DNA of 62,936 bases, filler included, from Collodictyon triciliatum (Eukaryota), in assembly GCA_043381765.1 (NCBI GenBank). It is 8 parts of 8 records of this genome, joined end to end, with 100 filler letters (N's around TTAATTAATTAA, not from the genome) between each part and the next. Parts side by side here need not be neighbours in the genome. Positions count along the whole stretch, not along the records: positions 27,490 to 36,551 come from JBHJMP010003181.1; 7 more parts are not named here. One strand, written 5' to 3'. How positions within the stretch are numbered: position 1 is the stretch's first letter; the number at the start of each line of letters is the position of its first letter. Position numbers and translations under genes: made by a program. Below the pieces are notes generated by a model. The model was not told the DNA's origin, did not search any database, and saw only the letters and a program-made list of their open reading frames with translations. This document shows positions 9,064 to 45,811 of this stretch, one piece after another.

Positions 9064-9163
9064 NNNNNNNNNNNNNNNNNNNNNNNNNNNNNNNNNNNNN
9101 NNNNNNNTTAATTAATTAANNNNNNNNNNNNNNNNNNNNNNNNNNNNNNNNNNNNNNNNNNNN
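9064..9163. other. Artificial contig linker (N44-TTAATTAATTAA-N44)
   Basis: Six-frame-stop linker. Identical copies at 18228-18327, 27390-27489, 36552-36651, 45712-45811, 54861-54960 and 61683-61782. Confidence 0.98.
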
Positions 9164-9732: not shown

Positions 9733-18030
<8,298 letters not shown>

Positions 18031-18227: not shown

Positions 18228-18436
18228 NNNNNNNNNNNNNNNNNNNNNNNNNNNNNNNNNNNNNNNNNNNNTTAATTAATTAANNNNNNNNNNNNNNNNN
18301 NNNNNNNNNNNNNNNNNNNNNNNNNNNCGTTGTTTCAGTGGCTTTTCTCTTGGTATTCGGTCTGGTGGGGGGGGTGGGGGGGGGTTGAAGCTCTTGAAGT
18401 ATTGTTTTATAGCTACACAGGTAATCTAAACTCAAA

Positions 18437-19906
18437 CCTCGAACAGGTGCACCGTCCATGATTTCAAACTTTGTAATGGTCTCGCTTTCATTATAGATGT
18501 TTGCCCCTATAGAGCATACCAGTAAGAAAGGAGACACAGATAAGAGGCTATATACAGTACATTCTCTGAATTAATTAGTGCATTCGTCTTATTGGCCATA
18601 AGATCAAACCTGATCCAGTTGATTCGCGTTTGATAATAGCAACCTCCATGTGCTTAATTTTCACACGAACAAGAAGGAAGTATACTTTCCCGATTACAGC
18701 GTCTTTCAGGTGATACCTACACGTGTATTAGTTGCTTGTGAGCAATCTAATGCCATATTATATTTTCAATTTGTAAAGCTAACCATGTATTAATAATTAA
18801 GGGCAAAAAGAATAACGGGAAAAATAAGCTATCGGGCAACTACGATACGACTCACTTGGACTTGTTGTACTCAAATTCAATATGCAAGCAATCTTCAATA
18901 CCGACTTCCATTTTAATGCTATTATTGATTTCTGGTTCTGAAGCAGTGAGCTGTACCCAAAAATCTTGTTCTTTGACAACATTGGTAGCATACTGCCGAG
19001 ACACAGTGACACGGAGAAAATATCTGTGATTGGAAAAAGAAACAAAACATATTCAAGGGAATTTTTCTTATTCGATTCAAAGTGCAGCGAGGAAGTCAAA
19101 ATGAAACACAAAGGAAAAAAAAGAAGAGAGTTTTATTTTAAATTATACCTGAGGCGAACGTTGATTCCATTGTATGACTCGTGGTTCTTCTCTACCGAGG
19201 CAAACTCAAAGGGAAATACCTTATTCTCACTCAAAATGCCCGGTGGGGCGAGTTCACGAAGGGTGGAGGCAAATTCATATTGATTTCCGCGATCATAAAA
19301 GAGTTCTATTCCACCAATCACAAGAAGGAAAAGAGAGAAGAAATAATGTGGCTTTAAGTGCCTATTCTTTCACATACCAGCCAACACTTAACGTAAATGG
19401 AAAAAAAAAAGTCAATTATGAAATGCTTCAGGAGAGTATCTATGGCAGAAAACGTGAGAGAAAGAAGTCATACCAATCTGCCCGACAAGCTCGAGACGAA
19501 TACCCAAGTGCTCCAGCTTCTTCCCAGAACTCGGAGTAATAATTACACGACCGCTGACTGTGTCGTTAGAGTGGTATAGGGGAAGTCGTTCTGAGCCGCC
19601 TTCTTTTTGGACTTCCACGTGGGGGCGGGGCGATCCATCGGAGCGCGGGTCAAACTCGAAGGAAATCTTGTGGGAACTTCCAAAACCAAAGAGCGACTAT
19701 GGTATACAAACTTGAGTTTAGAGCCAGTCACTCCAAGGCTGAAAGGATCTTGCAAAAAGGAAAAGAAAAAAGAAAAAAAGAGAGGAAAAAAGAAAAAAGA
19801 AAAGAAAAAAGGAGAGGTATCCGACAGTCAAAACTTCAGGAGTTTATGATGTAAGAAAGGTTTCATAAATGGCAAGGGATAGTGATCGGGTTTCTCTGCA
19901 AACCAT
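18437..19906 (-). CDS. VPS26: Vacuolar protein sorting 26 (retromer), 3'-partial
   Basis: SLFGFG..., KKLEHLGIRLELVGQI, ELFYDRGNQYEF...RELAPPG, FEFASVEKNHESYNGINVRLRY, IKMEVGIEDCLHIEFEYNK, ESETITKFEIMDGAPVRG. The start is probably an ATG-only coding exon (ATG|GT at 19906-19904, tentative). Truncated by the contig end. Confidence 0.95.
19061..19092 (-). mobile_element. Family-1 micro element, diverged copy in a VPS26 intron
   Basis: Reverse complement CCTCGCTGCACTTTGAATCGAATAAGAAAAAT matches the family core; no clear TSD. Confidence 0.65.
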
Positions 19907-21960: not shown

Positions 21961-24900
21961 ATGCGGTTGCCAGGACTTCGACGTCCGCGGCTAGAATCGG
22001 TCTCTTTGACTCTCGTGTTGTTGTGTACACTTGTCGCGGTTAAAGCCGGCAATCTTAACAACGAGAGCAGGGACTCGCAGGTTCAAAGGGAAAGCATGCC
22101 CAGGAAACCCACGCCAGTAGCTTCGGGTGATCATACGAGGTGGGGATCTTTCTCGTTTTTGTATGCTGGGGTTATCTTGTTGTTCCTTCTCTTGTCCCAT
22201 TTTCTTTCTGTTTTTCATTTTCGTTCATGGTTTTGCTTTTCTTCATTTGCAAAGTTCAAAGTACTAATAGTTTAAGACTTACTTTGCTGGTTTTTTTTTG
22301 TTTGTTTATAAGTAGTGATTACACATATTTTAATGCAGCCTCGCTAAATCTTGAGGTTTCTTATTTGCATGAAGTTTATATGTCCCATTTTCACGAGTCC
22401 TTTCCCAGGAATTCATTTCATGAGTGCATACACGGTGAAATGATGAACCTTACGACAATAATCAACAGGCGACAAACCTATGAAAAGGTTGATGGTTATT
22501 TTTGCCAATAAACTGAGATTGTGCTACCTATGAGCGAAAAAGATAATATTCAAACACGAAGAAGGAAACAACTTAATATCGCAATTGATGTTTAAAGTGA
22601 TTATTTTCATCTCACCTCATTTTTTGGTCAATATTGCTTTTCCTTTCTTTTTTAAAACAAAATATTGAATACTATCTACGATCTTACTTTAGAAAAATCA
22701 AATTATATATTCAAATATTCTTTTATGCAACCAGGCTAGAATCGGTGCTCCTCTTACACCAGATACAACAGAGCCAATACGAATTCATTTCGACAAAGTT
22801 TTAATTCACTTTGCTTTCATTCTTTGAATAGGGCATCCACAAACCTGTCTTTATTTTAAAAATCGATATTTCATGAGAAACTGGGATTTGCTACAAATTA
22901 TATGTTCTTATGAATTTTTGAATGTCTTTATTTCTGAAGACATACCTAGACCCTACAAATGATATAAAGATGTCGTGTGCAAAGGCTGGGCAAACTTACT
23001 ACAATATCAAATTTAGCCAATACATGACATGCACAGGTGAATGCAGAGCTTGATGAACTAAATAATATGCAATATCTTTAGGGAGGCGGAATCACGACGT
23101 CGTCATTTTATGAATTATTATTAATGTTATTTGATACTATTTTAACACCTAGTTGATGATGTTGTAAATAACATTGGTGTGATTGATGATGTATTGCACG
23201 AAGGACAAAAGTTTTTTGCCAAAGCACTTCGAGTCAAGCCTATTGTATGGTTGGGTTAATGAAGAAGATATCACCGCATATTAATGATTAGTGCATAACA
23301 TGGAAGGAGATCTTCTAGTCAAAAAAATAATTTAATATAGCTCAATGGGGTATCTGTATCAACTTCGTCTCAATGCTCATTCTCCTATCCTTCGCAATCC
23401 AATTATCCAGATTCTGATCTTGTGTTGATGATATTTGGTAAGTGATTTTCTTCGAGCTTTCTTTCTTTTTGTATGAGATGAATGGTTGGAAAGCAAAGAA
23501 GTATCCCATCGCCATCATGTGTGAATGTCACGATGGTACATACTTTACTAGAACTTTATATTGAATTAGAAGATGAATCAAATTTTACCAATTCGATATA
23601 TTCATCGACAGCACGTCCAACAACAAATACCACACTCGCTTTTGCTTCTTATTGTGCGGTGGACCAAACACGTCGACCTGTTCTTGGTTACATAAATTTT
23701 GGGCCAGTGTGTTATTTTTCGCCTTGATACCCACAAGAATAGTTCTTCTATAACTGAATCCTAAAAAATAATTCATTCTGTGATCCTATTTGGACTACCT
23801 GGAGTATCATTTTTCTTCTCTAGTTGTGTAACCTAAACATTTATTTGCATTATTGCAGCGAACAATCAATGGGGCCAAAAAAGGAACGGATGACTACAGA
23901 AAGCTAATATATACCACAATTCATGAAATGACACACGCATTAGGATTTTCGATACCATCTTACTATGTAATGAAGCTCAACGGTCATATTTTATTACGAT
24001 ATTGTACATTTGTATCATCTCTATGCTATTAATCGCCAGATGAACGATATGAGAACTAACTAAATATGTATATATTCTAAAGGATTCAAATAATGACATG
24101 ATGGTGCCTACCCAACTCTTGGTTTATAATCCTTCAAAAAACCAACATGCATACATAACATTCCAGCAAGTTAGGCTGTATGGTAATCCTTTCTTTATCT
24201 CAAACGAAAGTCATTTTATGTTGTAACGTGTTCTAATTGTACACATATACGATCAAATATGCAATTTTTTGACATACTTAAATCAATTCGTACGAAGGAA
24301 CAAATAGAGTTATCTATGTGATGAATTCAGCGAATGTGAAATTAAAGGCTCAGGAGCTAATGGGTTGTTCTGTAATAATTACTATGTTTAATTGCTGTTT
24401 CGGTTAACACGAATTAAGAATCGTGCTGTATAGACACTACCAGGTGCAGCCATGGAAGATTCTGACCTTCCTGGAACAGGGGCAACTCACTGGGAAGAGA
24501 GATTATACATGAACGAAGCCATGACGGGTTTACAAATGTTACACTTACAATTTTTTCATCCTGGTTGACCATTCTTTTCCCTTCTTTTCCCAGTTTTTTT
24601 TTTTTTTTGGAAAATCATTTCTACCTGGTTCCCATGAAATTACATTCTGATTTTACTGCCTGATTACTTATAAGCGATTAATCCATCCAAAGGAACGCTG
24701 GATTATTTGGCACCAGCAAAGTTTTCGGCCCTCACATTGGCATTTTTTGCAGACACAGGTTGATGATTCTCTGTCTTATTCTTGATTATTATTCTTCTTT
24801 CTTTTTTATGACAGTTTGCTCCACTGCCTTTTTAATATATTTCCAAAGCGTTTCTGAACTAGAGCTCTCTTCCTCGGATAGGGTGGTATTCAGTGAACTA

Positions 24901-27281
24901 TGATGCAGGAGAAGATTTGGAATACGGGAAGGGGATGGGATGTGGTTTTTTTGAAACAAAATGCAGTGATTGGACAGGTTTTTTTTTTAAAAGAGACCTA
25001 GCAATATAATGAGGTCTTTAATAGTGATAAAGAAGAAACTATGCAACTTGATAGAGGTCAACTAGTCAGATTCTACAAAAAGATAAACAATATGTAAGCA
25101 ATATTTCCTTAACGATTTTCGTTTACATAAATATGCAGGTGGGTATAAATGTGATAAAATGAAAGGGTTATACTGCTCGGCTGATAGTCGGTACAAGTCT
25201 AGATGTTCGCTAAAAAATTATGGGTCAACCCTTCCGACGAAATTCCAGTATTTCACAGACAAGTCAATAGGAGGGCCCGAGTAATACTAATTTACTACGA
25301 CCATCACAAAAACGATTCAGTTTGCCTATTATATTATTAGGGCAACATTAGTTCATCATAACGATGTTTTCTTTTTTTTAAAAAAAAACCCATGATTTTT
25401 TGATCATAAAATTTTGTTTATCCTTTTTAAGCTCAACTACAGATTACTGCCCCATCCCATCACCTTATGAATCTTGCCAAGATACATCGAATCCTCCGTT
25501 TGAAGTTCAGCTCTATCGCAGCTATCGTGGTGAAAAATACTGCAGCAACTGTTATTGCTTCATGACAAACTCTGTGACCATCACAAATATATTTTCCGAG
25601 GGATATAATAGCGTGTATGCCAAACACTACACTGCCGCATCCATTCACAAATTTAAATCAATATTTTTTTCTATCTCACAAGCATAACTTGAAAAATTGA
25701 ACTAGAACATTCCAAAAAACGCCATTTGCATGTCATGAAGCAATGTGTGCAGGCCCAGACCGCCTTAAGGTATGACACACATATTTTATTTTTATTTTTA
25801 TTTTTATTTCTATTTCTATTTATTATTATTATTTTCATAATTCGATCACGTTGGAAGAAAAGTCCCTGTTGATTATGACATTTTTTTTATAGCTCACTTT
25901 ATATCTTCACTATTATTTGCAAAAAGAAATCACAATTTCTCTTAGATGTGGTTTAAAAGTCGATATAAAAAAAGGTTCGACCTGGTAAACAGACTCCTAT
26001 ATGGTATGACTGTCCATCAGGAGAAAAGATTCACATGTTTGGATATACAGGCCACCTCATTTGTCCAAACGTAACAAAATTAAATGAGTCTGCCATTTTT
26101 TTAAAATGTCTGTTAGCATGTTACTTTCTCTCCTCAAGTATTTCTACATCAAAATACTATGGTCCATACTATAACTTACCACATACCGTCCATGCATTCA
26201 CATTCAAGGCATCTTCAATATGCCACGGAGCTCCATTTCAACCAGATTGGCCGGTCATCACCTCTGTAAACCCAAAGTCATTCAGCGACAATGGAGGCGG
26301 TCTCTTTACCGTTCACGGTAATGTGGTTCCCTGAATATATCCTTTGTATAAAGTATTCATGTGTGTCAACATTAATACCGCTGAAAGTATTTATGAAAAC
26401 ATTATGCTGGATTAACACAGGAATCAAGCTAGGGGATATTAGCCACCTTCTTGTAGCGGACTCAAAGGCAACAATAAAAAAAGTTTGCAATTTGGAAAGA
26501 ATTTTTTTTATTATTGCTTGCAATTCTCTTATACATTCATATTTCCATATTTGATTGTATACTTTCAAAATATAATACTCTGTTTATTCTATTTAAACGC
26601 AGAAAAATGACACCATGATAATTGCTGTTGCGCCAGAAGTATATTCTCCGACTGGAGAAAGCTTTTACGCTCCTGTTGTTGCTGTGTTGGGCGATGATAA
26701 GCAGCGAACGGGACAGATATTTGACCAAGTGAGTGGGGTTTCATCAGACATAACCCCTTTTTGTTATATACATGTCGCATTTATTAATTAACTTTCTATC
26801 GCTTCAAAATCTCGCCCTGATTGTTACATACACACTTTTGACTCTCCCTGACATAGTACTATGTTCGCTATTCGTTTCAATTATTCCGCATCTTTGACAA
26901 GCTTGGAAAAGATTATCCGCTAGCGTTGTTTGGAGGTACGATGATATATTCCCTACAAACAAAAGCGATTCAACAAATAAACATCTATATAAATGAATAT
27001 AAGCCTACCATGAAGGAAAGAGACGCTGTGGTTATGTCACATTCTTTTATCTTGTTTCTAGCCGAGTTATGCAATCTTGTTATAAACGATACGATATATA
27101 ACACACACCGATAGGAATCATCACATCACTCGCACTCACCGCAGCCATTGGATTCTACGTTCGGTGGCGGATGCGCGTCATCCGCTCCCGCATCATCGAG
27201 ACCGTCAAGGAGATCCAGAAGAAACGCAAGATGATACGCGCTCGAAGCCAAAAACCGCAGCAACCCACAAACAAAACATAA
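21961..27281 (+). CDS. Leishmanolysin/GP63-like M8 metalloprotease with IPT/TIG domain, TM helix and basic tail
   Basis: Signal-like N-terminus (LTLVLLCTLVAVKAG), pro-peptide HECIH, RPVLGYINFGP, zinc motif IHEMTHALGF (about 23919-23948), GTGATHWEERLYMNEAMT, SALTLAFFADTGWY, Cys-rich region, PVITSVNPKSFSDNGGGLFTVHG (IPT-like), TM segment ending ...ALFGGIITSLALTAAIGFYV, stop TAA 27279-27281. Confidence 0.92.
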
Positions 27282-27489
27282 AACCGTATAATTCAACTGT
27301 TTTTCCCCTATTTTTTTTTTTTTTTTTTAAAAAAAAAAACCACAAAAAACACCAAAAAACACCCCCCCAACAAAAAAAAAAAAAAAAAANNNNNNNNNNN
27401 NNNNNNNNNNNNNNNNNNNNNNNNNNNNNNNNNTTAATTAATTAANNNNNNNNNNNNNNNNNNNNNNNNNNNNNNNNNNNNNNNNNNNN

Positions 27490-27619
27490 GATTACCGACT
27501 TCTTCTCCGCCACCCGGCCACCAAGTAGCGTCCATGCAAACGATGGCTAGCGAACCAAAGCCAACATCTTCACCATCCTGCACAAAATTGAAAGGAAGAA
27601 TAAAAAAAATAAAAAAAAA
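27490..27619 (+). mobile_element. Family-2 element 3' end (longest copy; contig starts inside it)
   Basis: ...AAGCCAACATCTTCACCATCCTGCACAAAATTGAAAGGAAGAATAAAAAAAATAAAAAAAAA shares its 3' part with the TSD-flanked copies at 29105 and 43534. How far the element extends 5' of about 27558 is inferred. Confidence 0.65.
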
Positions 27620-27814
27620 TCCTGCTCTTTCTCGCGCCCGTTTGCCACACCACCTAATGGCAATACGCTTTCTGTTCTCTGTGCGCACAACCGCACCGTT
27701 ATCTGTCGAGCAACTCCCGTTCTGTGTGACTTGTCAAGTGCCGTCACGAAACAAATTAACGGTGTGCAAAACACAGCCCCCAAACCCCACCCAAACCGCC
27801 CCACTTCTGACGCG

Positions 27815-28390
27815 ATGGCCGACGAGGCTGCGCTTCTAGAAGAGGTCCGAGAGATCGCCGGAAGTCGCGACATTGCCGCTTTAAAAAAGTCCACGTATCT
27901 GTCACTCGGATCTAAAAAACTGACGTCTGTACTGCGTGGAGTTTTTTTACTAACTCATCTGAAACAATTGCGTCTTGACGTAAATCGGCTGTCATCGCTT
28001 CCTTCGCAAATATCGCGTTTGGCTGGTCTCACTCGTCTCGATGTTGAGGGCAACCAGTTGTCATCGCTGCCTCCACAAATATCCTGTTTGATTGGTCTCG
28101 GATGGCTGAGTATTTGGAACAACCCAGTATGCTTTTTTATATTCATATATTATTCTATTTTTATGGATGTTGGAATACAAAGCGACTGAAATCGATACAC
28201 GCAGATGAAGGAGCTCCCACCACAAATCACAGCGCTCAAAAACCTGGATATTCTCTTCATCAAACTCTACGGCACACAGACCATAACGAGAACACCACGT
28301 GGCATCACAGCTCTTCCAGTATGGAACAACTCTGATCGATGGAACACGGATTACGAACACATCCGCGCACTGCAACTCTACGACCCCGTA

Positions 28391-28426
<36 letters not shown>

Positions 28427-31400
28427 GAGAAAAAGTATCTTAAACCCCAAAATTAAAACAGGAAGACGAAATCATGAAGCCGGGATGGACACCTAGCGAG
28501 GCATATATCCAGCTCCACTCGCTGAATTTCACCGGAAAAAATATCTCCGCGCTTCCCGCCAACATCACCCTCCTGGTGAATCTGAGGTCCATCGACGTCA
28601 GCCAGAACAAGGTGAGTGAAACGAAATCGCCGTAAAAAGCGTAAATCTCAATAATCGAACAATAACGAAATTGCGTACGTTTTGGCACTAACCACCTTTC
28701 TGCATGGTGGCCATGCGGCAATAATCGATGCTTCCAACGATAAGGTTTATTTTCCTTCATCTATATATATATTTTACCCATTTTATAATATTTTAGGATT
28801 AACCCCTTTTTAATTTATGAACAGTTATCCGCACTGCCAGCAAACATATTGATCTTGACGAATCTCACAAATCTCAGTATCAGTAACAACGAGGTACAAA
28901 AATGTTGAATTACATTTATGTAAAGTGTACACACTGGCCAATTGTAAATGACCTCTTTCTGACAAATAATTACTCACTATAGTTCGATGTATTACCCGCA
29001 GCCATCTGCACATTGAAGCTAATGGCCTCATTCGATATATCTACCAACCAGGTAATTAAATCGTTTTATCATTTTCTCTTTTCACTTATGAAATTAGACA
29101 TTCCCCCTCGGTCCTGCACAAAATTGAAAGGAAGAATAAAAAAAAATAAATGAAATTAGACATTCCTTAATTCATTTTTCCATTTTATTAGAATTTTGAG
29201 ATTAAACCCTCTTTAATTTATGAACAGTTATCCGCACTGCCAGCAAACATATCAAACTTGACCAATCTCACAAATCTAAGTATCAGTAACAACAAGGTAC
29301 AAATGTTGAAATACATTTATGTAAAATATACACACTGGCCAATTATAAATGACCTCTTTCTGACAAATAATAACTCATCATAGTTCGACGTATTGCCTGA
29401 AGTTATATGCACGTTAACGCTCATCGTATCACTCGATATGACCGCCAACCAGGTCATTAAATCCTTTTCATTTCTATTTTCCATTTTGCATTTTGCATTT
29501 TGCATTTTGCATTTTGCATTTTGTATTTTCCATTTTGCATTTTGCATTTTGCATTTTGTATTTTCCATTTTGCATTTTGTATTTTGTATTTTGTATTTTC
29601 ATTTATAAAAATAGACGTTCCTATTGGTTAATTCATTTTATTATAATCATGGGTTAATGTTTAAGTCTTTTTAATTGATCAACAGATATCCGCGTTGCCA
29701 GCGAGCGTTTCGAACTTGACGAATCTCACAAATATCAGCATCAGTAACAACAAGGTACGAATACTAGAATAGATAACATAATATACAGGTCAGCTCATCA
29801 TAAATGAGAGTGTTCTGACAACCACTAATTCTTCAAAGTTCGACGCATTGCCTGAAGGTATATGCACATTAACGCTCATCGCATCACTCGATATAAGCAC
29901 CAACCAGGTCATTAAATCATTTTTCATTTTCACTTTGATTTCCGCTTTCATTTCCACTTTGATTTTCACTTTGATTTTCAATTTGATTTCCACTTTGATT
30001 TTCAATTTGATTTTCATTTCCATTTTCCATTTTCCATCTTCCATCTTCCATCTTCCATCTTCCATCTTCCATCTTCCATCTTCCATCTTCCATCTTCCAT
30101 CTTCCATCTTCCATCTTCCATCTTCCATTTTCTATTTTCACTTATAAAAATGGGCGTTCCTATTAATTATCCATTTTATTATAATTATGGGTTTATGTTT
30201 AAGACTTTTTAATGAATCTGTAGATATTCACACTGCCAGCAAACATGTCGAACTTGAAGAAACTTACAAATCTCAGTATCAGCAACAACAAGGTACGAAT
30301 ACTTTGTGCTCGATTGTAACGGAATAATTTAAGAGTTTGAATCATACACAATGCGGAAGGCCTTTGATTTGCTTGCGGATTCATGCATCAGCCGTTGATA
30401 TTAAGGAACAAAACCTATCTTTAATTGACAGATATCCGCTTTGCCTGATTTGCGAGCGTTGACAAAGCTCAAAGTTCTGGACATGAAACAAAACGCTTTT
30501 CCGTCGCACATCCAACAAATTCTAGACTCAGTCAATCTCGCAAATAGTGATGGAATAAGTCTATCTGGACGAAAAATCATAGAAGTACCAAAAGAACTGT
30601 TCATGCTGCCTATCATACCTTACAAATTCGATATATCCGCCAACCAGGTAATTACACTCATTTTCATTATTTTAATTTTAATTTTAATTTTAATTTTAAT
30701 TTTAATTTTAATTTTAATTTTAATTTTAATTTTAATTTTAATTTTAATTTTAATTTTAATTTTCAGTTTCAGTTTCAGTTTCAGTTTCAGTTTCAGTTTC
30801 AGTTTCAGTTTCAGTTTCAGCCGCGGACATTACTACACTCTAATATTTTCTTTTTCTTTTCAGTAAGCTGCGTTTAAACCTAAGACTATTTGACCAACAA
30901 ACAAATAGATATCCACATTGCCAGCAAACATGTCGAACTTGACGAAACTCACAAATATCAGCATCGGCAACAACAAGGTATGAATAGTGGAATAATTAGT
31001 ATAATATATGATGGGTTATCATAAATGAAATGGTTCTGAAAAATACTTATTCTTCATAGTTCGACACTCTGCCCGCAGCCATCTGCTCATTGACACTCGT
31101 TGTATCACTCGATATATCCACCAACCAGGTGACTAAATCACTTTTTTCATTTGTCAAAAACAGGCATTATAAAATTCTAATCCATTTTTCTCAGGAAGGT
31201 TTGCGATTTAACTAAAGACTCTTTGATTAACAAACAAACAGATATCCACACTGCCAACATACTTATCGAACTTGACGAATCTCACAAATCTCAGCATCAG
31301 CAACAACAAGGTACGAATAGTGGAACACTTAATATAATATATAATGGGGTATCATAAATGAACTTGCCCTGAAACCCACTCTTTCTCAAAAGATTGACAC

Positions 31401-33974
31401 TCTACCCGCAGCCATCTGCATATTTACACTTATCGTATCACTCGATATATCCAACAACCAGGTAATTAAATCCTTTTTTTAATAAATAAAAAAAAAAACA
31501 GATACCCCTATATTTGTTAATCCATTTTATTAGAATTTTTTCGTTGTAATTAAACCCTCTTAAATTTATCAATAAATAGATATCCGAATTGCCAGCGAAC
31601 ATGTCGGACTTGAAGAAACTTACAAATCTCAGCATCACCAACAACAAGGTACATATACTTGATGCCTGATTAGGACCGAATAATTTAAGATTGATTGAAT
31701 AATACATCACTCAGCATGCCTTTGATATGCTTGTGGATTCATGTATCAGCCCTCGATATTAAGGAATAATACCTCCCTTCAATCAACAGATATCCAATTT
31801 GCCTGATTTGCGAGCGTTGACAAAGCTCAAAGTTCTGGGCACGAAGCAAAACGCTTTTCCATCACACACCCAGCAAGTTTTAGACTCAATCAATCTCGCA
31901 AATAGTGATGGAATAAGTCTATCTGGACGAAAAATCATAGAAGTACCAAGAGAACTGTTCATGCTGCCTATCATACCTTACAAATTCGATATATCCGCCA
32001 ACCAGGTAATTACACTCATTTTCATTTTTTTAATTTTCAGTTTCAGTTTCAGTTTCAGTTTCAGTTTCAGTCGCAGACATTACTACACTCTAATATTTTC
32101 TTTTTCTTTTCAGTAAGCTGCGTTTAAACCTAAGACTATTTGACCAACAAACAAATAGATATCCACATTGCCAGCAAACATGTCGAACTTGACGAAACTC
32201 ACAAATATCAGCATCGGCAACAACAAGGTACGAATAGTGGAACACTTAATATAATATATAATGGGGTATCATACATAAAATGGTTATGAAAAATACTTAT
32301 TCTTCATAGTTCGACACTCTGCCCGCAGCCATCTGCTCATTGACACTCGTTGTATCAATCGATATATCTACCAACCAGGTGACTAAATCAATTATTATTT
32401 TTTTAAAAAAAAAAAAAACCAGACATACCTATATTCGTTAATCCATTTAAGAGTAAATTTTGCATTTAAACTAAAAACTCTTTGATTAACAAACAAATAG
32501 ATATCCACATTGCCAGCAAACATGTCGAACTTGACGAAACTCACAAATATCAGCATCAGCAACAACAAGGTACGAATAGTGGAACACTTAGTATTTTTTT
32601 TCCTTTATTCGATTCAAAGTGTAGCGAGGTTATGCCATACTAGGAGGCGGGATGGGAGCGCATGAGAGAGAAGTGGAACACTTAATATAATATATAATGT
32701 GTTATCATACATAAAATGGTTCTGAAAAATACTTATTCTTCATAGTTCGACACTCTGCCCGCAGCCATATGCTCATTGACACTCATTGTATCACTCGATA
32801 TATCCACCAATCAGGTGACTAAAACACTTTTTTTCATTTGTCAAAAACATTTATATTTTCATTTTCATTTATATTTTCATTTAATTTATTTTATTAAGAT
32901 ATATATGCCTATATTCTTTAATGCGTTATTATATTATTTTTCGTAATTAAACCCTCTTAAATTTATCAATAAATAGATATCCGCATTGCCAGCAAACATA
33001 TCGAACTTGACGAATCTCACAAATCTCAGCATCAGCAACAACAAGGTACATATCATTTGATGCTCCATTGCGACAGAATAATTCAAGAGTGATTGAATCA
33101 TAAACAAACTACATGCCTTTGATACGCTTGCTTATTCGTGCTCCAGCCATGTATATGTTAAGGAATAATACCTCCCTTAAATCAACAGATATCCACTTTG
33201 CCTGATTTGCGAGCTTTGACAAAGCTCAAGGTGTTGGACACGAAGCAAAACCCTTTTCCATCACACACCCAACACATTTTAGACTCAATCAATCTCGCAA
33301 ATAGTGATGGAATAAGTCTATCTGGACGAAACATCATAGAAGTACCAAGAGAACTGTTCATGCTGCCTATCAAAGGATTGAACATCTCCAACAACCAGGT
33401 TTATTATGACACATGTATGAACAGGGGACCTGCTGCGCTAATCCATTTATTAGAATAATTGTATTTATACACTATAATTAATAACAATAAATAGATATCT
33501 GCATTGCCGGCAAACATGTCGAACCTGACGAGCCTTACAAATCTCAGCATCAGCAACAACAAGGTAAACACATATAGACATAGACATAAACATAAAATTT
33601 AGAATATGTTAGCATGATATTCAGATAGCCTATTGTACCTTATAAATTAACTGACAAATATGCGAGGATTTTAGTTCGACGCATTCCCCACAGTCATTTG
33701 CACATTGACCCTTATTGTGACCCTCAATGTTTCTGGAAATCAGGTTATAATATTACACAACATATATATTCAAAGCAATAGCAACTGACGAATCAACAAC
33801 AATGCATATATAGTAACCAAATACTCATTTAAACTCACGTATCGTACGAATCCAGATTTCACACATTCCAGATGCCATAGCAAACCTTGTAAATCTTCAA
33901 AACCTGGATGTATCCAACAACAAAGTCATTTTATTTCCATTATCTATTTTGATTAAATTATGTGGCCATATTTC

Positions 33975-34008
<34 letters not shown>

Positions 34009-34015
34009 AAAAAAA

Positions 34016-34058
<43 letters not shown>

Positions 34059-36551
34059 ACCAACTTCATTATCAGATTGGAATCATACCCGAAATCATCG
34101 GCAAAGTTAAAGGCCTGCGAGGTGGACTGAATATCCAAGGAAATCCCATCAAAAATATAACAGAGAACGTTCTCAGAAATGGGTCTGAAGCAGTCTTTGA
34201 TTTCATAGCAAACTCCATGAAGGGGGTTGTAAAATGGACACAAGGAAGACTCCTATTATTGGGTGAAGCAAATGCTGGGAAAACAACCCTCACTAAATCA
34301 ATAACCCAAAAAAAAATGTTTTTCAAGAACATGACAGACCGGCAGCGCGAGCGAACTGATGGTATCGCTCATGTTGATATCGATGAGTCAGCGATGGGTG
34401 GATTATTCAAGACAAAGATATCTGTGCGAATTTGGGACTTTGGAGGGCAAGAGGAGTTCCAAGTGACACACCCATTCTTTTTGTCATCAGGCGCCCTCGT
34501 TTTAATCCTTTACAGACTCGACCAAGGCAAGGAGAAGAACAATCTAAGCCGCTGGGTCAAAATGCTTGATGACTTTGCACCTGGCTCAAGAATCATAATT
34601 GCTGGGACTCACAAAGATTGTCAAAACCGGGTCTATAAGCAAGAAATGATGAAAGATATCGAACGAATCAAGAAAGAAAATGAGCTGAAACCGGATGAAA
34701 AGGCTCGCCACATCTTCATCAATACAGATTTAAAAGTGAGTAACAAAAGTGGAACAAAAATTTCAGATTTGAAAGAAGAGATATACGAAGGAATGATGAC
34801 ACTTGATAACATGAACAAGGACTTTCCAAAAACATACATCGGGCTGAAAGACTATCTGAATTCAAAAAGTCAAATATCAAAGTACGAACGAATCCAAGAC
34901 ACTTACGATTTTGCCGAGAAGCAGCTGGGTATGGACAGAAATGGATGCGAAAGTGCTCTCAAATTCCTCCACGACCTCGGCTCGGTCGTTTGGTATTCTT
35001 CATTCGAAAATGTCAAAGACATTATATTTTTAGACCCGCTATTTCTCATCAACATTTTTCGCTGTGTCTTCAGCTTCAAAGGCATCGGGAAGGACACAAG
35101 CGGCATCATTTTGTTGAGCAAGCTAAAAGACCAAATCAAACAAGAACTGAATGCAGAACTAGACGAACATGTGTTCAATACAATTCTTCGAATCTTTGAC
35201 CATTTCGGCCTTGGGATTCAATTCAACAGAGAATGCATCGCCTTTCCCTCATTGATGGAAGATTGCCAAAATCTCAAAGCCTTATGGAATGAGAAACCAG
35301 AGTCAAACTGCATTGCAGAAACCTCTGTAGAAATAATCACCAATGGTGAGATCCAGCTCTCTGACAAAAGTAACGTCGTCATGCAAGCGCTTCGTTTGAC
35401 AAAAGAGGCACAAGCTGGAGTTCAATATGACGACCAGTTTTTCAGAGATGTAGCGTTCATACATCTGAATGCTTCGTACAAAACAGGAACGGATGAAATT
35501 CAACTGCTTCCTGGAGACGGTTTGATTATTTTGTATCAAATCCACCAGAAGCATATTTCAGTCAAGATTAGAAAATACGAAAATGATGTTCATGATGGTG
35601 ATAGAATCGTCAGGATTTTTGACATTCTTTCAACCTTCATCAAACAAATATCATCAATTCGACCAAATTTTGTGGAAGCATATCGATTTGAATGTCCTGA
35701 ATGCCAGCGTCGTGGATTAGGCGGTTATATTCAAACATCGGCAAAGATAGATGAATCAGAATTGAAGGTGTGTAACAAGAGCCATCAATTGGATGCGAGT
35801 GCAGTAAAGCAAGGGCGCGTCTATCTGGAACAAGGTTTATTATAATAAATATAATCAAAAAATTAATTTTTAACTTAATAGTAATTTGATTAAATATTAT
35901 CGAAAACTAGTAAATCATTTTATACTTGAAAAAAGGGATTTCAAGGAGATTCACCTCTGTGGTGAGAGAAAAAAAGAAAAAGAAGCCGCAATCTGCTGAA
36001 GCAATTCGTGAGCTTGATTCAATCGACCGAGAATTAACAGACGAATGGATTCATGAAAAAATAGAACTGTCAGGTTATCTCGCAAAGGGGGCTTATGGGC
36101 GAGTTTATACAACAATGCTCGAAGGAAAAAGTGCTGTGGTGAAAATCCAAACTATGCAGAAGAGCAAGGAGCAGACCCTCAGTGAGGTGATTCAATCGCT
36201 CATTTTTGAAAGCAAGTATCTGCATGAATGCAAGGAATGTGAAAATATAGTAAAATTATTTGGTGTTTATCGTAAAGATGACGACTTTTACATGATTATG
36301 GAGAATGCAGGCTTTTCGTTGAAAGCGATGTTGGAGAAGAAAAATATCAAGCCAACATTATCTCAAATAATTTCTTACACAAAACAATTGTGCAAAGGTT
36401 TCATTTTTATGCATTCTAAAAATCTGTATCACGAGGATTTGAAGGCTGATAATGTTATGATTGTGGGTGAAACAACAGTAAAAATTGTAGATTTTGGGAT
36501 AGTGAGCCGTCGTGAAGTTGATAAAGTCGGGTCAAACTTACCGACGAGATT
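27815..36551 (+). CDS. Roco protein: LRR array - ROC GTPase - COR - Ser/Thr kinase (LRRK/Roco family), 3'-partial
   Basis: ATG at 27815, then 26 exons before the ROC-COR exon. The large exon 34076-35834 has P-loop GEANAGKTT, RTDGI, WDFGGQ, GTHKD, VSNK and COR ALKFLHDLGSVVWY...IFLDP. A phase-1 intron leads to 35936 and the kinase (LAKGAYGRV, VVK, YHEDLKADN, DFG). Truncated by the contig end. Confidence 0.95.
29105..29149 (+). mobile_element. Family-2 micro retro-insertion in a Roco intron
   Basis: CCCTCGGTCCTGCACAAAATTGAAAGGAAGAATAAAAAAAAATAA flanked by a perfect 17-bp TSD ATGAAATTAGACATTCC (29088-29104 / 29150-29166). Confidence 0.85.
32591..32671 (-). mobile_element. Family-1 retro-insertion (longest copy, about 80 bp) in a Roco intron
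   Basis: Reverse complement TCTCTCTCATGCGCTCCCATCCCGCCTCCTAGTATGGCATAACCTCGCTACACTTTGAATCGAATAAAGGAAAAAAAA. TSD AGTGGAACACTTA (32578-32590 / 32672-32684). Paralogous introns starting at 31311 and 32228 carry the empty site. Confidence 0.9.
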
Positions 36552-36651
36552 NNNNNNNNNNNNNNNNNNNNNNNNNNNNNNNNNNNNNNNNNNNNTTAAT
36601 TAATTAANNNNNNNNNNNNNNNNNNNNNNNNNNNNNNNNNNNNNNNNNNNN

Positions 36652-36734
<83 letters not shown>

Positions 36735-36750
36735 AACCACACAGGAAAAC

Positions 36751-37932
36751 ATGGCACCCGGCACGGACGACCCGACCCGAGAGGCAGGCGAGGGACCGGC
36801 AGAGACGGACGGAGCAGAGCGAGCAGCCCCGGAGGCACTGATCCAACTCGGGGAGCACGCGATCACGAAGCTCACGACTCGCACAAAGCGCCGATTGCAC
36901 GGGGACACGTCGGAGGACTCATCCGGCGACTCCGTAGACCCCATCCCCATCCACAGCCACAGCCACAGCCACAGCCACAGCCACATCCCCGGACATGATG
37001 GGAGCATCGCCACAGCCACAGCCACAGCCACAGCCACAGGTGCGGTTGTGGACGGCAACGGGGCGGCGGCGGAGGCAGAGGGCGGGACGGGCAAGCGGAG
37101 CAAGCGGGGCCCGCAGTACTGGACGCTGGAGGAGGACGAGGCGCTGTGCCGGGCGGTGCGGGAGGCCGGGCGGGAGGGGTGGCACGCGGTGGCTGCGCAT
37201 GCGCGGGGGGTTCTCGGGCAGCGGCGGACGGCGGAGCAGTGCTGCCATCGCTGGCACCGCGTGCTGAACCCGCGCATCAGCCGCGCAGAGTGGACGCCGG
37301 ACGAGGACGCGCGCCTGGGCTCGCTGGTTGCTGCGCACGGGGCCAGCCACTGGAAGCGCCTTGCGCAGCTGCTGCCCGGCCGCACGGACCAGCAGTGCCG
37401 CTACCGCTGGCATCAGATCTCACAATCACAGTTACCATCACAATCACAATCCCAATCACAGTTGCCATCACAATCACAGTCGCAGTCGCAGAGGCCCAAG
37501 ATGATGCAGCGCGCTTCCCACGCCCGCCGCGACTTCCGCGACCGCACCGTGGCCACCAAAGGCGGCTTCGTCATCGACGTGTGGCATCTGCGGCCGCAGG
37601 CAAACGCCCTGGCCATCGAGGTCGCCGCGTCGCAGTCGCCCGTGCAGCTGCCGTCCATCGAGGACTACGTCGACATGCCCACCCGCGTCGGCCGCTCCCG
37701 CCCGCTCCTCCCGCCCGCTGCCCTCCCCCGCCTGCCGCCCCCGTCCGTCCCTTGCAAGGCCCTCGCAGATGCGCATCCCGATGCCAATCCCGATGCCGAT
37801 GCTGATGCCGATGCCGATTCGGTATCTGCCATCGAGGCTGCTGTGTCCATTGTCGACCCGGTCGACCTGCCCTCCCAGAAGGACGCGTCTGCCTCTGTGG
37901 CTCAGGAGAAGCTTGCTGCAGATGCCCTGTAG
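36751..37932 (+). CDS. R2R3-type Myb DNA-binding protein, single exon
   Basis: 393-aa ORF with WTLEEDEAL...WHAVA...RTAEQCCHRWHRVLNP and WTPDEDARL...WKRLAQLLPGRTDQQCRYRW; HS, AT, SQ and DA low-complexity runs; TAG stop. Confidence 0.93.
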   Translation: MAPGTDDPTREAGEGPAETDGAERAAPEALIQLGEHAITKLTTRTKRRLHGDTSEDSSGDSVDPIPIHSHSHSHSHSHIPGHDGSIATATATATATGAVVDGNGAAAEAEGGTGKRSKRGPQYWTLEEDEALCRAVREAGREGWHAVAAHARGVLGQRRTAEQCCHRWHRVLNPRISRAEWTPDEDARLGSLVAAHGASHWKRLAQLLPGRTDQQCRYRWHQISQSQLPSQSQSQSQLPSQSQSQSQRPKMMQRASHARRDFRDRTVATKGGFVIDVWHLRPQANALAIEVAASQSPVQLPSIEDYVDMPTRVGRSRPLLPPAALPRLPPPSVPCKALADAHPDANPDADADADADSVSAIEAAVSIVDPVDLPSQKDASASVAQEKLAADAL

Positions 37933-38735
37933 TCTTGTTCTTTTCTCTTCTTTTGTTTCAACTTCTTTTTTTTTCTGTTGAGAGATGCGAGAAACAAACA
38001 AACAGACAGACAGACAGACAGAAAGGATATGGCAGCTGTCTCTTCCGCATCTTGTTTTTTTATTTTTTTTTTTTATTTTGTCCCCGCTTGATTATGCCCT
38101 TTCTTATCTCGCTTTGCTTTTCTGCCTTCGTCTATACACCTACTCCGCTCTGCTTCGGCTGGCTCTTGATTACATGCGCGCATATGTGTGGCGTCCTCCC
38201 TGATTACAATGATGTTCTTCTTAGCCTCGTGTGGGTTTGTATCCTGAGCTGGTGCTTCTAATTCCTTTTCCTTTTTTTTTTCCTTTTTTTCCTTGTCCTT
38301 ATCTTACTGGTAGCGGCACCTATTGTTTTGATAGCGCTTTGTCGAGTCGGAGTGATTGGCTCCAGTGTTGAAAGAGAGAGAGAAAGGATAGAAATGACGA
38401 CGAACCACAGATATGCAGAAAAGAGAAAGCAGAGAGAAAGCAAACACACGCTTTGTGATAATACCAAAGACCGATTGCGCACCCACAACATCTTCCCCCT
38501 CAAAGCGAACAACCCCAACCACCACCACAACGCCTCTCACTCGTCAAAACCATATGCGAAAGCACAAGTCCTGCCGCAAACTAACCTCTCTTCTCTTCTC
38601 TTTTTTTTTTTTTTAAAAAAAAAAACAACCACAAACTGAAAACTCAGCTCCCAGCTTCCTTCTTTCCCCCCTCTCTCTTCTCTTCTCTTCTCTTTCTCTT
38701 CTTTTTTTTTCCCTACTCTTTTTTCCTACTCTCCC

Positions 38736-45654
<6,919 letters not shown>

Positions 45655-45811
45655 TAATTTAAAAAAAATTTTTTATTTATTTTTTTTTTTTTATTTTTTT
45701 AAAAATAAAAANNNNNNNNNNNNNNNNNNNNNNNNNNNNNNNNNNNNNNNNNNNNTTAATTAATTAANNNNNNNNNNNNNNNNNNNNNNNNNNNNNNNNN
45801 NNNNNNNNNNN

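What the first reader, a model, noticed from the sequence alone, without database searches (positions are those of the whole stretch)
28825..33924. Roco receptor built from interchangeable one-LRR-per-exon cassettes in higher-order tandem units
Seen: 20 exons of exactly 69 nt (23 codons, one LRR each) and 3 exons of 216/216/210 nt, all phase 0-0, in the order A B A B A B A C A B A B A C A B A B A C' A B D. A is like ISTLPANMSNLTKLTNISISNNK and B like FDTLPAAICSLTLVVSLDISTNQ. Introns are duplicated with the exons, and the C-A-B-A-B-A unit recurs at 1358 and 1399 bp spacing, while the whole ROC-COR region is a single 1.76-kb exon. Known: one-LRR-per-exon Roco genes with exon shuffling are described in the brown alga Ectocarpus as candidate pathogen receptors. 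Inference: any exon can be skipped, duplicated or swapped in frame, so this may be an independently evolved modular, diversifiable sensor in a protist. Caveat: A copies differ little on the predicted concave face, so hypervariability is not demonstrated.
Basis: partly seen in the sequence, partly recalled or inferred. Interest (0 to 1): 0.85.

Follow-up and report, generated by a model that had tools for sequence, protein, structure and literature searches.

The report
Roco kinase with duplicated LRR exons
A signalling gene (leucine-rich repeats, GTPase, kinase) of an AT-rich eukaryote grew its repeat domain by copying 69-base exons together with their introns; this is a tidy case of exon duplication, and the copies show no sign of being diversified like immune receptors.

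Summary
Window 28825-33924 carries 20 exons of exactly 69 nt and three of 216/216/210 nt. Introns were copied with the exons, and C exons start 1358 and 1399 bp apart.

Spliced, the gene gives an open 1680-codon LRR-Roc-COR-kinase. It is cut inside the kinase because its piece (27490-36551) ends there; the window is a chain of unrelated ~9-kb pieces joined by spacers.

Copies are under purifying selection (dN/dS 0.21-0.47). Type-A repeats are nearly invariant on the predicted concave face. No orphan or antisense cassettes exist in the window, and no paralogues were found. One clear cassette replacement by gene conversion or unequal exchange is visible.

The nearest relatives are Diphylleia rotans transcripts, about 35% identical in Roc-COR, which share the 72-residue C module. 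Brown-algal ROCO genes (72-nt exons) and Tetrahymena LRR genes (90-nt exons), both with phase-2 introns, are precedents. This is therefore an independent variant of a known kind.

Splicing isoforms, copy-number variation and assembly accuracy could not be tested.

The parts
27490..36551 (.). The one assembly piece (9062 nt) that holds the gene. Its neighbours in the window are separate pieces joined by N44-TTAATTAATTAA-N44 spacers.
27815..28126 (+). Exon N1 (312 nt): start codon and several LRRs with no intron between them
   Evidence: Pfam LRR_8 E 1.1e-7
28205..28387 (+). Exon N2 (183 nt): irregular module, also seen in the Diphylleia relatives
28462..28611 (+). Exon N3 (150 nt), ending in an A-like LRR
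28825..28893 (+). e1, type A, 69 nt
28983..29051 (+). e2, type B, 69 nt. Its flanks match e4 but the exon itself is divergent (72% to e4).
29228..29296 (+). e3, type A
29384..29452 (+). e4, type B
29686..29754 (+). e5, type A
29839..29907 (+). e6, type B
30224..30292 (+). e7, type A; first exon of higher-order unit 1 (30224-31579)
30432..30647 (+). e8, C module, 216 nt (three irregular repeats in one exon)
30909..30977 (+). e9, type A (identical to e15)
31060..31128 (+). e10, type B
31242..31310 (+). e11, type A
31393..31461 (+). e12, type B
31580..31648 (+). e13, type A; first exon of higher-order unit 2 (31580-32976)
31790..32005 (+). e14, C module, 216 nt
32159..32227 (+). e15, type A
32310..32378 (+). 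e16, type B
32501..32569 (+). e17, type A
32746..32814 (+). e18, type B
32977..33045 (+). e19, type A; first exon of the shorter unit 3 (32977-33924)
33189..33398 (+). e20, C' module, 210 nt
33495..33563 (+). e21, type A
33675..33743 (+). e22, type B (the most divergent B)
33856..33924 (+). e23, type D, 69 nt
   Evidence: LRR_8 E 0.0022
34076..35834 (+). Single 1759-nt exon: last LRR, Roc GTPase, COR
35936..36551 (+). Kinase exon, entered in phase 1, cut by the end of the piece at profile position 147 of 263
32498..32839 (+). Replaced cassette (e17-intron-e18). It matches the e15/e9 pairs at 34 informative sites and its positional homologue e11/e12 at 2. In the 3' flank the ratio is 2 to 15.
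   Evidence: Fisher p 2.7e-9; break points chosen after looking
32578..32671 (-). Extra 94 nt in intron i17: a 77-nt antisense tail of a dispersed repeat (AATAAA, A-run) plus one copy of a 17-nt target duplication
29476..30132 (+). Copy-specific microsatellites in B>A introns i04 and i06, with periods of 7, 12 and 7. Others lie at 30669-30820 and 32035-32071.

Best explanation
The locus encodes a cytosolic multidomain Roco signalling protein: a long LRR solenoid, a Roc GTPase, a COR domain and a protein kinase. The LRR domain was lengthened by nested tandem duplication of exon-plus-intron units through unequal crossing-over: first A-intron-B pairs of about 400-460 bp, then an A-C-A-B-A-B unit of about 1.36-1.40 kb. 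Occasional gene conversion or cassette replacement followed. All introns of the LRR region sit at the same place in the repeat, one residue after the conserved Asn, in phase 0. Within the array this is because they descend from a few ancestral introns by duplication. The copies are kept by purifying selection as a regular solenoid of alternating A and B repeats, interrupted every 187 residues by an old, conserved three-repeat C module. The domain therefore most likely serves as a constant scaffold or regulatory arm for Roc-COR-kinase, as the LRR does in LRRK2, and not as a variable recognition surface. Shown here: the anatomy, the domains, the intron homology, the selection regime and one cassette replacement. 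Inferred: the crossing-over mechanism and the scaffold or regulatory role.
For: Gene model: 28 exons and 27 GT-AG introns, giving 1680 codons without a stop. 26 of 27 introns have in-frame stops.

Domains: Roc 69.3 bits (cut-off 27), COR-A 46.7 bits (cut-off 35.3), Pkinase 96.2 bits. The motifs GEANAGKT, DFGGQ, THKD, AVVK, HEDLKADN and DFG are present. The best solved relative of Roc-COR is human LRRK2, E 3e-19.

Support for the spliced model: it aligns colinearly with spliced Diphylleia transcripts, for example residues 22-756 with P0076 at E 6e-73.

Duplication: intron classes are homologous and units are 82-90% identical including introns.

Selection: unit 1 against unit 2 has dS 0.139, similar to the intron divergence (78-95% identity), and dN/dS 0.43. 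All 10 comparisons fall between 0.21 and 0.47. On type A, concave diversity is 0.095 against 0.335 at other exposed sites.

The C module occurs three times in Diphylleia P0001 (E 2e-11, 5e-10, 3e-5), so it is old.

Mosaic e17-e18 cassette.
Against: There are no transcript data, so none of the 27 splice junctions has been observed. On type B the concave positions vary about as much as other exposed positions (0.364 against 0.317), so some surface variation exists. Exon e2 is far more divergent than its flanks (72% against 90%), which could mean exchange with an unseen paralogue. The rest of the genome is not available, so a family of such genes cannot be excluded. The scaffold or regulatory role is an analogy with LRRK2, recalled and not tested here. 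The longest exact repeat within the array is 155 nt, and the assembly could not be checked against reads.
Confidence: 0.75

Rival explanations
1. One reading: the phase-0 cassettes are used combinatorially, by exon skipping, cassette swapping or copy-number change, to diversify a pathogen or ligand sensor, in parallel with brown-algal ROCO genes.
For: All 23 array exons are symmetric in phase 0, so any subset stays in frame. At least one cassette replacement happened in the past, and exon and flank affinities disagree for e2, e4, e5, e7 and e17. B-type concave positions vary. The kinase has HED in place of HRD. Non-RD kinases are linked with pattern-recognition signalling: I recall this claim from a paper that I saw only as a reference-list entry in PMC6564038.
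Against: dN/dS is 0.21-0.47 in all 10 comparisons. On type A, 4 of 5 concave positions are invariant. No orphan, inactivated or antisense LRR exons were found in the introns or elsewhere in the window, whereas the brown-algal loci have them (PMC3341825). There is no signal peptide-like N-terminus. The five Trinity forms of the closest Diphylleia gene differ in the LRR region only by N-terminal truncation, not by cassettes; one short form also ends early outside the LRR region.
Confidence: 0.12
2. The array, or part of it, is an assembly artefact: copies collapsed, expanded or put in the wrong order.
For: The piece is only 9062 nt, and the window's pieces commonly end in homopolymers or microsatellites. 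Two stretches of the array share 155 identical bases, and 300-nt blocks are 96% identical.
Against: Units differ by 10-18% overall, and each intron has its own microsatellites and indels. Every junction keeps the frame and the splice sites. Chimeric joins would be unlikely to preserve a regular A/B/C order over 5 kb.
Confidence: 0.05
3. Some of the cassettes are dead pseudo-exons that are never included in the mRNA, so the real protein is shorter.
For: There are no RNA data. Donor sites after B exons are varied (GTCATT, GTGACT, GTTATA).
Against: 23 of 23 array exons are open, keep AG/GT and fit the repeat register. Non-synonymous change is held below synonymous change in every comparison.
Confidence: 0.05

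Closest known systems
Brown-algal LRR-ROC-COR (ROCO) genes with one LRR per exon (Ectocarpus, Saccharina). PMC3341825: passages read. PMC11378527: abstract and sections 11 and 15 read.
   Same: A Roco gene whose LRRs are each encoded by one short symmetric exon. The array was built by duplicating exon-intron units, and the LRR lies N-terminal of Roc-COR.
   Different: Exons here are 69 nt with phase-0 introns, against 72 nt with phase 2. The intron sits one residue after the conserved Asn, against three in the published exon consensus. Here two repeat types alternate and a three-repeat C exon recurs. A kinase follows COR. No antisense or inactivated intronic LRRs were found. Selection is purifying rather than positive on the concave face. 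The family size is unknown. Those papers' supplementary tables were not seen.
Tetrahymena LRR genes with arrays of exactly 90-bp exons (PMC6564038; passages read)
   Same: A protist case of equal-length LRR exons with one intron phase throughout. It is explained by unequal crossing-over and is associated with a non-LTR retroelement. Here one retroelement tail sits in an array intron.
   Different: [quoted passage not shown] Here a single locus was seen.
Diphylleia rotans Roco transcripts (EukProt; P0001/P0076, P0002, P0003)
   Same: These are the closest sequence relatives: 34-35% identity in Roc-COR, E 4e-60 to 2e-52. P0076 shows a colinear LRR region. The C module is shared with P0001, and an N2-like module is seen by eye in P0001 and P0002.
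   Different: Their precomputed domain lists hold no kinase family. P0001 carries PF13271, PF13401 and PF13191; P0002 carries PF13401 and PF13191 but not PF13271 (names recalled: DUF4062, AAA_22, AAA_16). P0003 carries PF00169. In P0001 the C modules start 114-119 residues apart and are divergent from one another; here they are 187 residues apart and over 85% identical. Their gene structure is unknown because only transcripts are available.
LRRK2, LRRK1 and prokaryotic Roco proteins with solved structures
   Same: The LRR-Roc-COR(-kinase) order is the same. The best solved match of Roc-COR is LRRK2 residues 1318-1677 (E 3e-19), followed by M. barkeri 4wnr, LRRK1 and the C. tepidum protein 6hlu.
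   Different: No ankyrin, armadillo or WD40 parts were seen, although the 3' end is missing. The LRR domain here is much longer. The top solved matches of the kinase are generic kinases (EGFR, STK10, MST), not LRRK2.
Ribonuclease inhibitor (alternating A/B repeats; recalled) and gonadotropin receptor LRR exons (cited in PMC11378527 section 15)
   Same: An LRR domain grown by exon duplication, with alternating repeat types in the ribonuclease inhibitor.
   Different: In the ribonuclease inhibitor one exon holds an A plus B pair (recalled); here A and B each have their own exon. The gonadotropin receptor introns are phase 2.

Membership tests
Roco proteins (Roc-COR tandem) | Roc (Ras of complex) GTPase domain with G motifs | tested here: met
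   PF08477 E 4.3e-19, 69.3 bits against a cut-off of 27. GEANAGKT, DFGGQ and THKD are present.
Roco proteins (Roc-COR tandem) | COR domain directly after Roc | tested here: met
   PF16095 COR-A E 4e-12, 46.7 bits against a cut-off of 35.3, at residues 251-379 of the same exon. LRRK2 aligns over residues 40-398.
Roco proteins (Roc-COR tandem) | Second half of COR (COR-B) | tested here: inconclusive
   No second COR family appears. Many more distant hits carry PF25497 (name recalled as COR-B), but the three closest relatives (P0001-P0003) do not list it. The 200 residues after COR-A align with the Diphylleia proteins.
Roco kinases (LRRK / Dictyostelium type) | Protein kinase C-terminal of COR | tested here: met
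   PF00069 E 2.8e-27, matching profile positions 7-147 of 263; the rest is lost at the end of the piece.
Brown-algal exon-shuffled ROCO receptors | Each LRR on its own exon of fixed length | tested here: met
   20 exons of exactly 69 nt hold one repeat each. Exons N1 and C hold several repeats.
Brown-algal exon-shuffled ROCO receptors | 72-nt exons separated by phase-2 introns | tested here: not met
   69 nt and phase 0 throughout the array, against PMC11378527 section 11.
Brown-algal exon-shuffled ROCO receptors | Inactivated or antisense LRR exons inside the introns | tested here: not met
   tblastn with all 23 exon peptides: the only hits outside the array with E below 0.05 are 4 rows, all in exons N1 and N3. 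The one intronic antisense row has E 0.29 over 15 residues. There are no inverted repeats of 60 nt or more.
Brown-algal exon-shuffled ROCO receptors | Diversifying selection on concave-face positions | tested here: not met
   dN/dS 0.21-0.47. Type A: 1 of 5 concave positions varies. Type B: no excess over other positions. The sample is small (11 and 8 copies), and no site model was run.
Brown-algal exon-shuffled ROCO receptors | Alternative splicing of LRR exons; large clustered gene family | not testable with these tools
   No genome is held, no RNA run is listed, and no reads were laid.
Tetrahymena 90-bp LRR exon arrays | Exactly 90-bp exons, phase-2 introns, thousands of genes | tested here: not met
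   69 nt and phase 0. Only one locus is visible.

The most novel reading that the evidence does not exclude
This would be a third, independent origin of LRR exon-cassette arrays in a protist lineage whose nearest Roco relatives are in Diphylleia (CRuMs), here in a Roco kinase. On this reading the phase-0 cassettes are still exchanged by recombination and are used, through cassette-level splicing or copy-number change between cells or strains, to tune what the LRR arm binds.
Probability: 0.12. Interest if true: 0.65.

Novelty: new variant of a known kind. Interest (0 to 1): 0.3.

Why it matters
It adds a clean, independent example to the short list of LRR domains built from one-repeat exons: brown-algal ROCO, Tetrahymena LRR genes and gonadotropin receptors. 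It differs from them in exon length and intron phase, so the architecture arises repeatedly. It also shows that the architecture need not come with diversifying selection. That weakens the inference, drawn from brown algae, that such gene structure by itself marks an immune-type receptor. The conserved 72-residue C module shared with Diphylleia defines a Roco subfamily for which two full-text searches found no description.

Tried and rejected
- Whole genome: none is held, so no genome-wide count of 69-nt LRR exons or of paralogues was possible.
- Sequencing runs: no RNA holder is listed. Two freshwater metagenome runs hold 0.06-0.07 of the sampled words.
Assembly accuracy and expression are therefore untested.
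- Metagenome scans: an A-exon DNA pattern gave 0 matches. The Roc-COR protein gave 108 pattern matches, 0 of them confirmed.
- Protein searches: 33 (longer) and 39 (near-length) proteins, with none closer than 35% identity and none from the window's own genome.
- Diphylleia Trinity forms as a proxy for cassette isoforms: 5 forms aligned. In the LRR region they differ only by N-terminal truncation; one short form also ends early outside it.
- AlphaFold2 of the C exon alone: mean pLDDT 57, pTM 0.22, so it is uninformative.
- Pfam on single 23-residue exons: A and B gave no hit; D gave LRR_8 at E 0.0022.
- Earlier findings of this scan: nothing on this genome or this sequence; the word search returned only unrelated ROCO notes.
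- Literature: 13 papers mention a 69-bp/nt exon, and none concerns LRRs judging by title and abstract start. No paper holds both 'Diphylleia' and 'Roco'. One paper holds Roco, COR domain, protist, LRR and intron together, and it is the brown-algal paper.
- The neighbouring genes in the window were rejected as context, because they lie on other assembly pieces.
Full report
WHAT THE WINDOW IS

The 62,936-base window is not one stretch of chromosome. Seven paired runs of 44 N with TTAATTAATTAA between them divide it into eight pieces: five of 9,060-9,064 nt, then 9,049, 6,722 and 1,154 nt, the last cut by the window end. Many pieces end in long homopolymers or microsatellites. The finding lies wholly inside one piece, 27490-36551 (9,062 nt). 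The neighbouring genes, including the GC-rich Myb-like frame that starts at 36.9 kb, are therefore not linked context. No whole genome is held for this window.

THE OBSERVATION

- There are 11 type-A, 8 type-B and one type-D exon, each of exactly 69 nt.
- There are three C exons of 216, 216 and 210 nt.
- The order is A B A B A B A C A B A B A C A B A B A C' A B D.
- The second C exon is 31790-32005. My first table was one base off and was corrected.
- Every exon is entered and left in phase 0, and all 27 introns of the gene model are GT-AG.
- C exons start at 30432, 31790 and 33189, giving spacings of 1358 and 1399.
- The Roc-COR exon is 34076-35834, 1759 nt.

This is far beyond chance. All 20 of the 69-nt exons fit a strict pattern for the repeat register. 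Only one other AG-69-GT open frame on the + strand of the window fits it, and that one lies inside exon N1 of the same gene. None on the - strand fits, and none in 200 shuffles of the piece.

THE GENE

Three upstream exons (27815-28126, 28205-28387, 28462-28611), the 23 array exons, the Roc-COR exon and a last exon (35936-36551) splice into 1680 codons without a stop. When read through from the upstream exon, 26 of 27 introns carry an in-frame stop. The remaining intron is 151 nt, so retaining it would shift the frame.

Pfam gives Roc (E 4.3e-19), COR-A (E 4e-12) and a protein kinase (E 2.8e-27). The kinase match stops at profile position 147 of 263 because the piece ends there. The GTPase and kinase motifs are intact: GEANAGKT, DFGGQ, THKD, AVVK, HEDLKADN and DFG.

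The best solved relative of Roc-COR is human LRRK2 (E 3e-19). Next come a Methanosarcina barkeri protein, LRRK1 and the Chlorobium tepidum Roco protein. The best solved matches of the kinase are generic kinases.

The N-terminus has no hydrophobic signal-like segment. The most hydrophobic 19-residue windows are type-B repeat cores and one COR segment. The product is thus a cytosolic-type LRR-Roc-COR-kinase, not a membrane receptor.

RELATIVES

The two large protein searches returned 33 and 39 proteins. The only close ones are three transcript-derived proteins of Diphylleia rotans, with 34-35% identity in Roc-COR and E values from 4e-60 to 2e-52. None of the rows that carry a source name names a brown alga, and no protein of the window's own genome appeared.

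The spliced model aligns colinearly with these spliced transcripts across many predicted junctions, for example residues 22-756 with P0076 at E 6e-73. This supports the exon model in the absence of RNA data.

The 72-residue C exon matches three places in P0001 (E 2e-11, 5e-10, 3e-5). An N2-like module is also visible by eye in P0001 and P0002. The C module, which reads as three irregular repeats in one exon, is therefore an old feature of this Roco subfamily. In P0001 the C copies start 114-119 residues apart and are divergent from one another. Here they are 187 residues apart and over 85% identical. The precomputed domain lists of the Diphylleia proteins contain no kinase family.

HOW THE ARRAY AROSE

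Introns are homologous within classes:
- A>B introns are 68-94% identical over pairs that align along nearly their full length.
- A>C introns are 79-81% identical.
- The two long C>A introns are 95% identical.

Self-BLAST gives 82-90% identity over 400-570 bp between units, introns included. Two levels of repeat are visible. The first is the A-intron-B pair, about 400-460 bp. The second is an A-C-A-B-A-B unit present as 30224-31579 and 31580-32976, with a shorter third copy at 32977-33924.

Synonymous divergence between the first two units (0.139) matches their intron divergence. The third unit (0.44-0.52) and the first three A-B pairs (0.36-0.67) are older. Each intron has since gained its own microsatellites.

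Exon N1 holds two full repeats in the same register with no intron between them. The parsimonious history is therefore multiplication of a few intron-flanked repeats, not intron gain at each repeat.

EXCHANGE BETWEEN CASSETTES

The e17-intron-e18 cassette (about 32498-32839) agrees with the e15-e16 and e9-e10 pairs at 34 informative sites, and with its positional homologue e11-e12 at 2. In its 3' flank the ratio is 2 to 15 (Fisher p 2.7e-9, with break points chosen after looking). This is a gene-conversion or unequal-exchange tract.

A table of best matches by upstream flank, exon and downstream flank shows further disagreement for e2, e4, e5 and e7. So cassettes have been exchanged during evolution. 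That is the one part of 'interchangeable' that the DNA shows.

SELECTION

All 10 comparisons of paralogous cassettes or units give dN/dS between 0.21 and 0.47.

I took the predicted concave positions to be exon positions 15, 16, 18, 20 and 21; this assignment follows the LxxLxLxxN rule and is recalled, not computed.
- Type A: 1 of 5 concave positions varies, against 9 of 9 other exposed positions. Mean pairwise difference is 0.095 against 0.335 (Fisher p 0.005).
- Type B: no difference, 0.364 against 0.317.

This is the opposite of the brown-algal pattern, where positively selected sites lie on the concave side (PMC11378527 section 11). The samples are small and no site model was run.

No inactivated, orphan or antisense LRR exon was found. 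With all 23 exon peptides as tblastn queries, the only hits outside the array with E below 0.05 are four rows, all in exons N1 and N3. The one antisense intronic row has E 0.29 over 15 residues. There are no inverted repeats of 60 nt or more.

COMPARISON WITH WHAT IS KNOWN

In Ectocarpus and other brown algae each ROCO LRR is a 72-nt exon between phase-2 introns. Related non-coding LRRs lie in the introns, often on the other strand. Splice variants and positive selection are reported (PMC3341825, passages read; PMC11378527, abstract and sections 11 and 15 read; supplements not seen).

Tetrahymena has nearly 50,000 exactly 90-bp LRR exons separated by phase-2 introns. These are ascribed to unequal crossing-over and possibly to a non-LTR element (PMC6564038, passages read).

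The present gene has 69-nt exons, phase-0 introns one residue after the conserved Asn, two alternating repeat types, a recurring three-repeat exon and a kinase output. It shares the principle with the known cases but fails the defining details of both families. I therefore file it as an independent variant of a known kind.

The searches I ran found no description of 69-nt LRR exon arrays or of Diphylleia Roco genes.

MOST LIKELY FUNCTION

The repeats are conserved and highly regular. I therefore read the LRR arm as a constant scaffold or intramolecular regulator of Roc-COR-kinase. In full-length LRRK2 the LRR lies over the kinase; this is recalled and the paper was not read, although full-length LRRK2 entries appear. 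This step is inference.

WHAT REMAINS OPEN

- Expression and isoforms: no RNA run is listed.
- Assembly accuracy across a 155-nt exact repeat; no reads were laid.
- Cassette-number variation between isolates.
- Whether the genome holds more such genes.
- A fold of the C exon alone was uninformative, with pLDDT 57.

Noticed in passing
window 9064-9163, 18228-18327, 27390-27489, 36552-36651, 45712-45811, 54861-54960, 61683-61782: Paired 44-N runs with TTAATTAATTAA between them cut the window into eight pieces in roughly descending length order (five of 9060-9064 nt, then 9049, 6722 and 1154 nt). The window is a chain of unlinked contigs, so gene neighbourhood across the spacers has no meaning.
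   Followed up: yes
window 32578-32671 (antisense); also about 1949-1980, 1018-1048, 12155-12185 and 19062-19092: A dispersed short repeat ends in ...TTTGAATCGAATAAAGG plus an A-run. Three copies (in intron i17, near 1980 and near 1048) are flanked by 14-17-nt target-site duplications. These look like heavily 5'-truncated non-LTR retroelement tails, and one lies in an intron of the LRR array.
   Followed up: partly
window 30761-30820 and 32035-32071: (TTTCAG)10 and (TTTCAG)6 microsatellites lie in the two C>A introns. Each unit looks like a 3' splice-site motif, about 90 nt upstream of the acceptor that is used. No effect was tested.
   Followed up: no
window 36652-38100: The next piece begins with an 82-nt A-run. 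It then has about 52% GC, against about 35% elsewhere, and holds an open frame with two Myb-like repeats (...WTLEEDEAL..., ...WTPDEDARL...). The composition is strikingly different for the same assembly.
   Followed up: no
window 23832-26334: Several short open frames include an HEMTHALGF motif, which suggests a leishmanolysin-like metalloprotease gene with many introns (family name recalled, not searched).
   Followed up: no
window 46758-48386: A 542-residue open frame has a ...PGGGYKRGDSGQEEGLFR... segment that recalls microbial-type poly(ADP-ribose) glycohydrolase or macro-like proteins (recalled, not searched).
   Followed up: no
exons e1-e21 of type A against type B: A and B exons were copied together, yet synonymous difference among A copies (0.24) is half that among B copies (0.47), and six A codons never vary. 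This points to homogenisation of A exons or to constraint at the nucleotide level, for example from splicing signals.
   Followed up: partly
P0001/P0076 and P0002 (Diphylleia rotans): In the closest relatives Roc-COR is followed not by a kinase but by PF13401 and PF13191, and in P0001 also PF13271. This is a Roco fused to a STAND-like NTPase (family names recalled).
   Followed up: no
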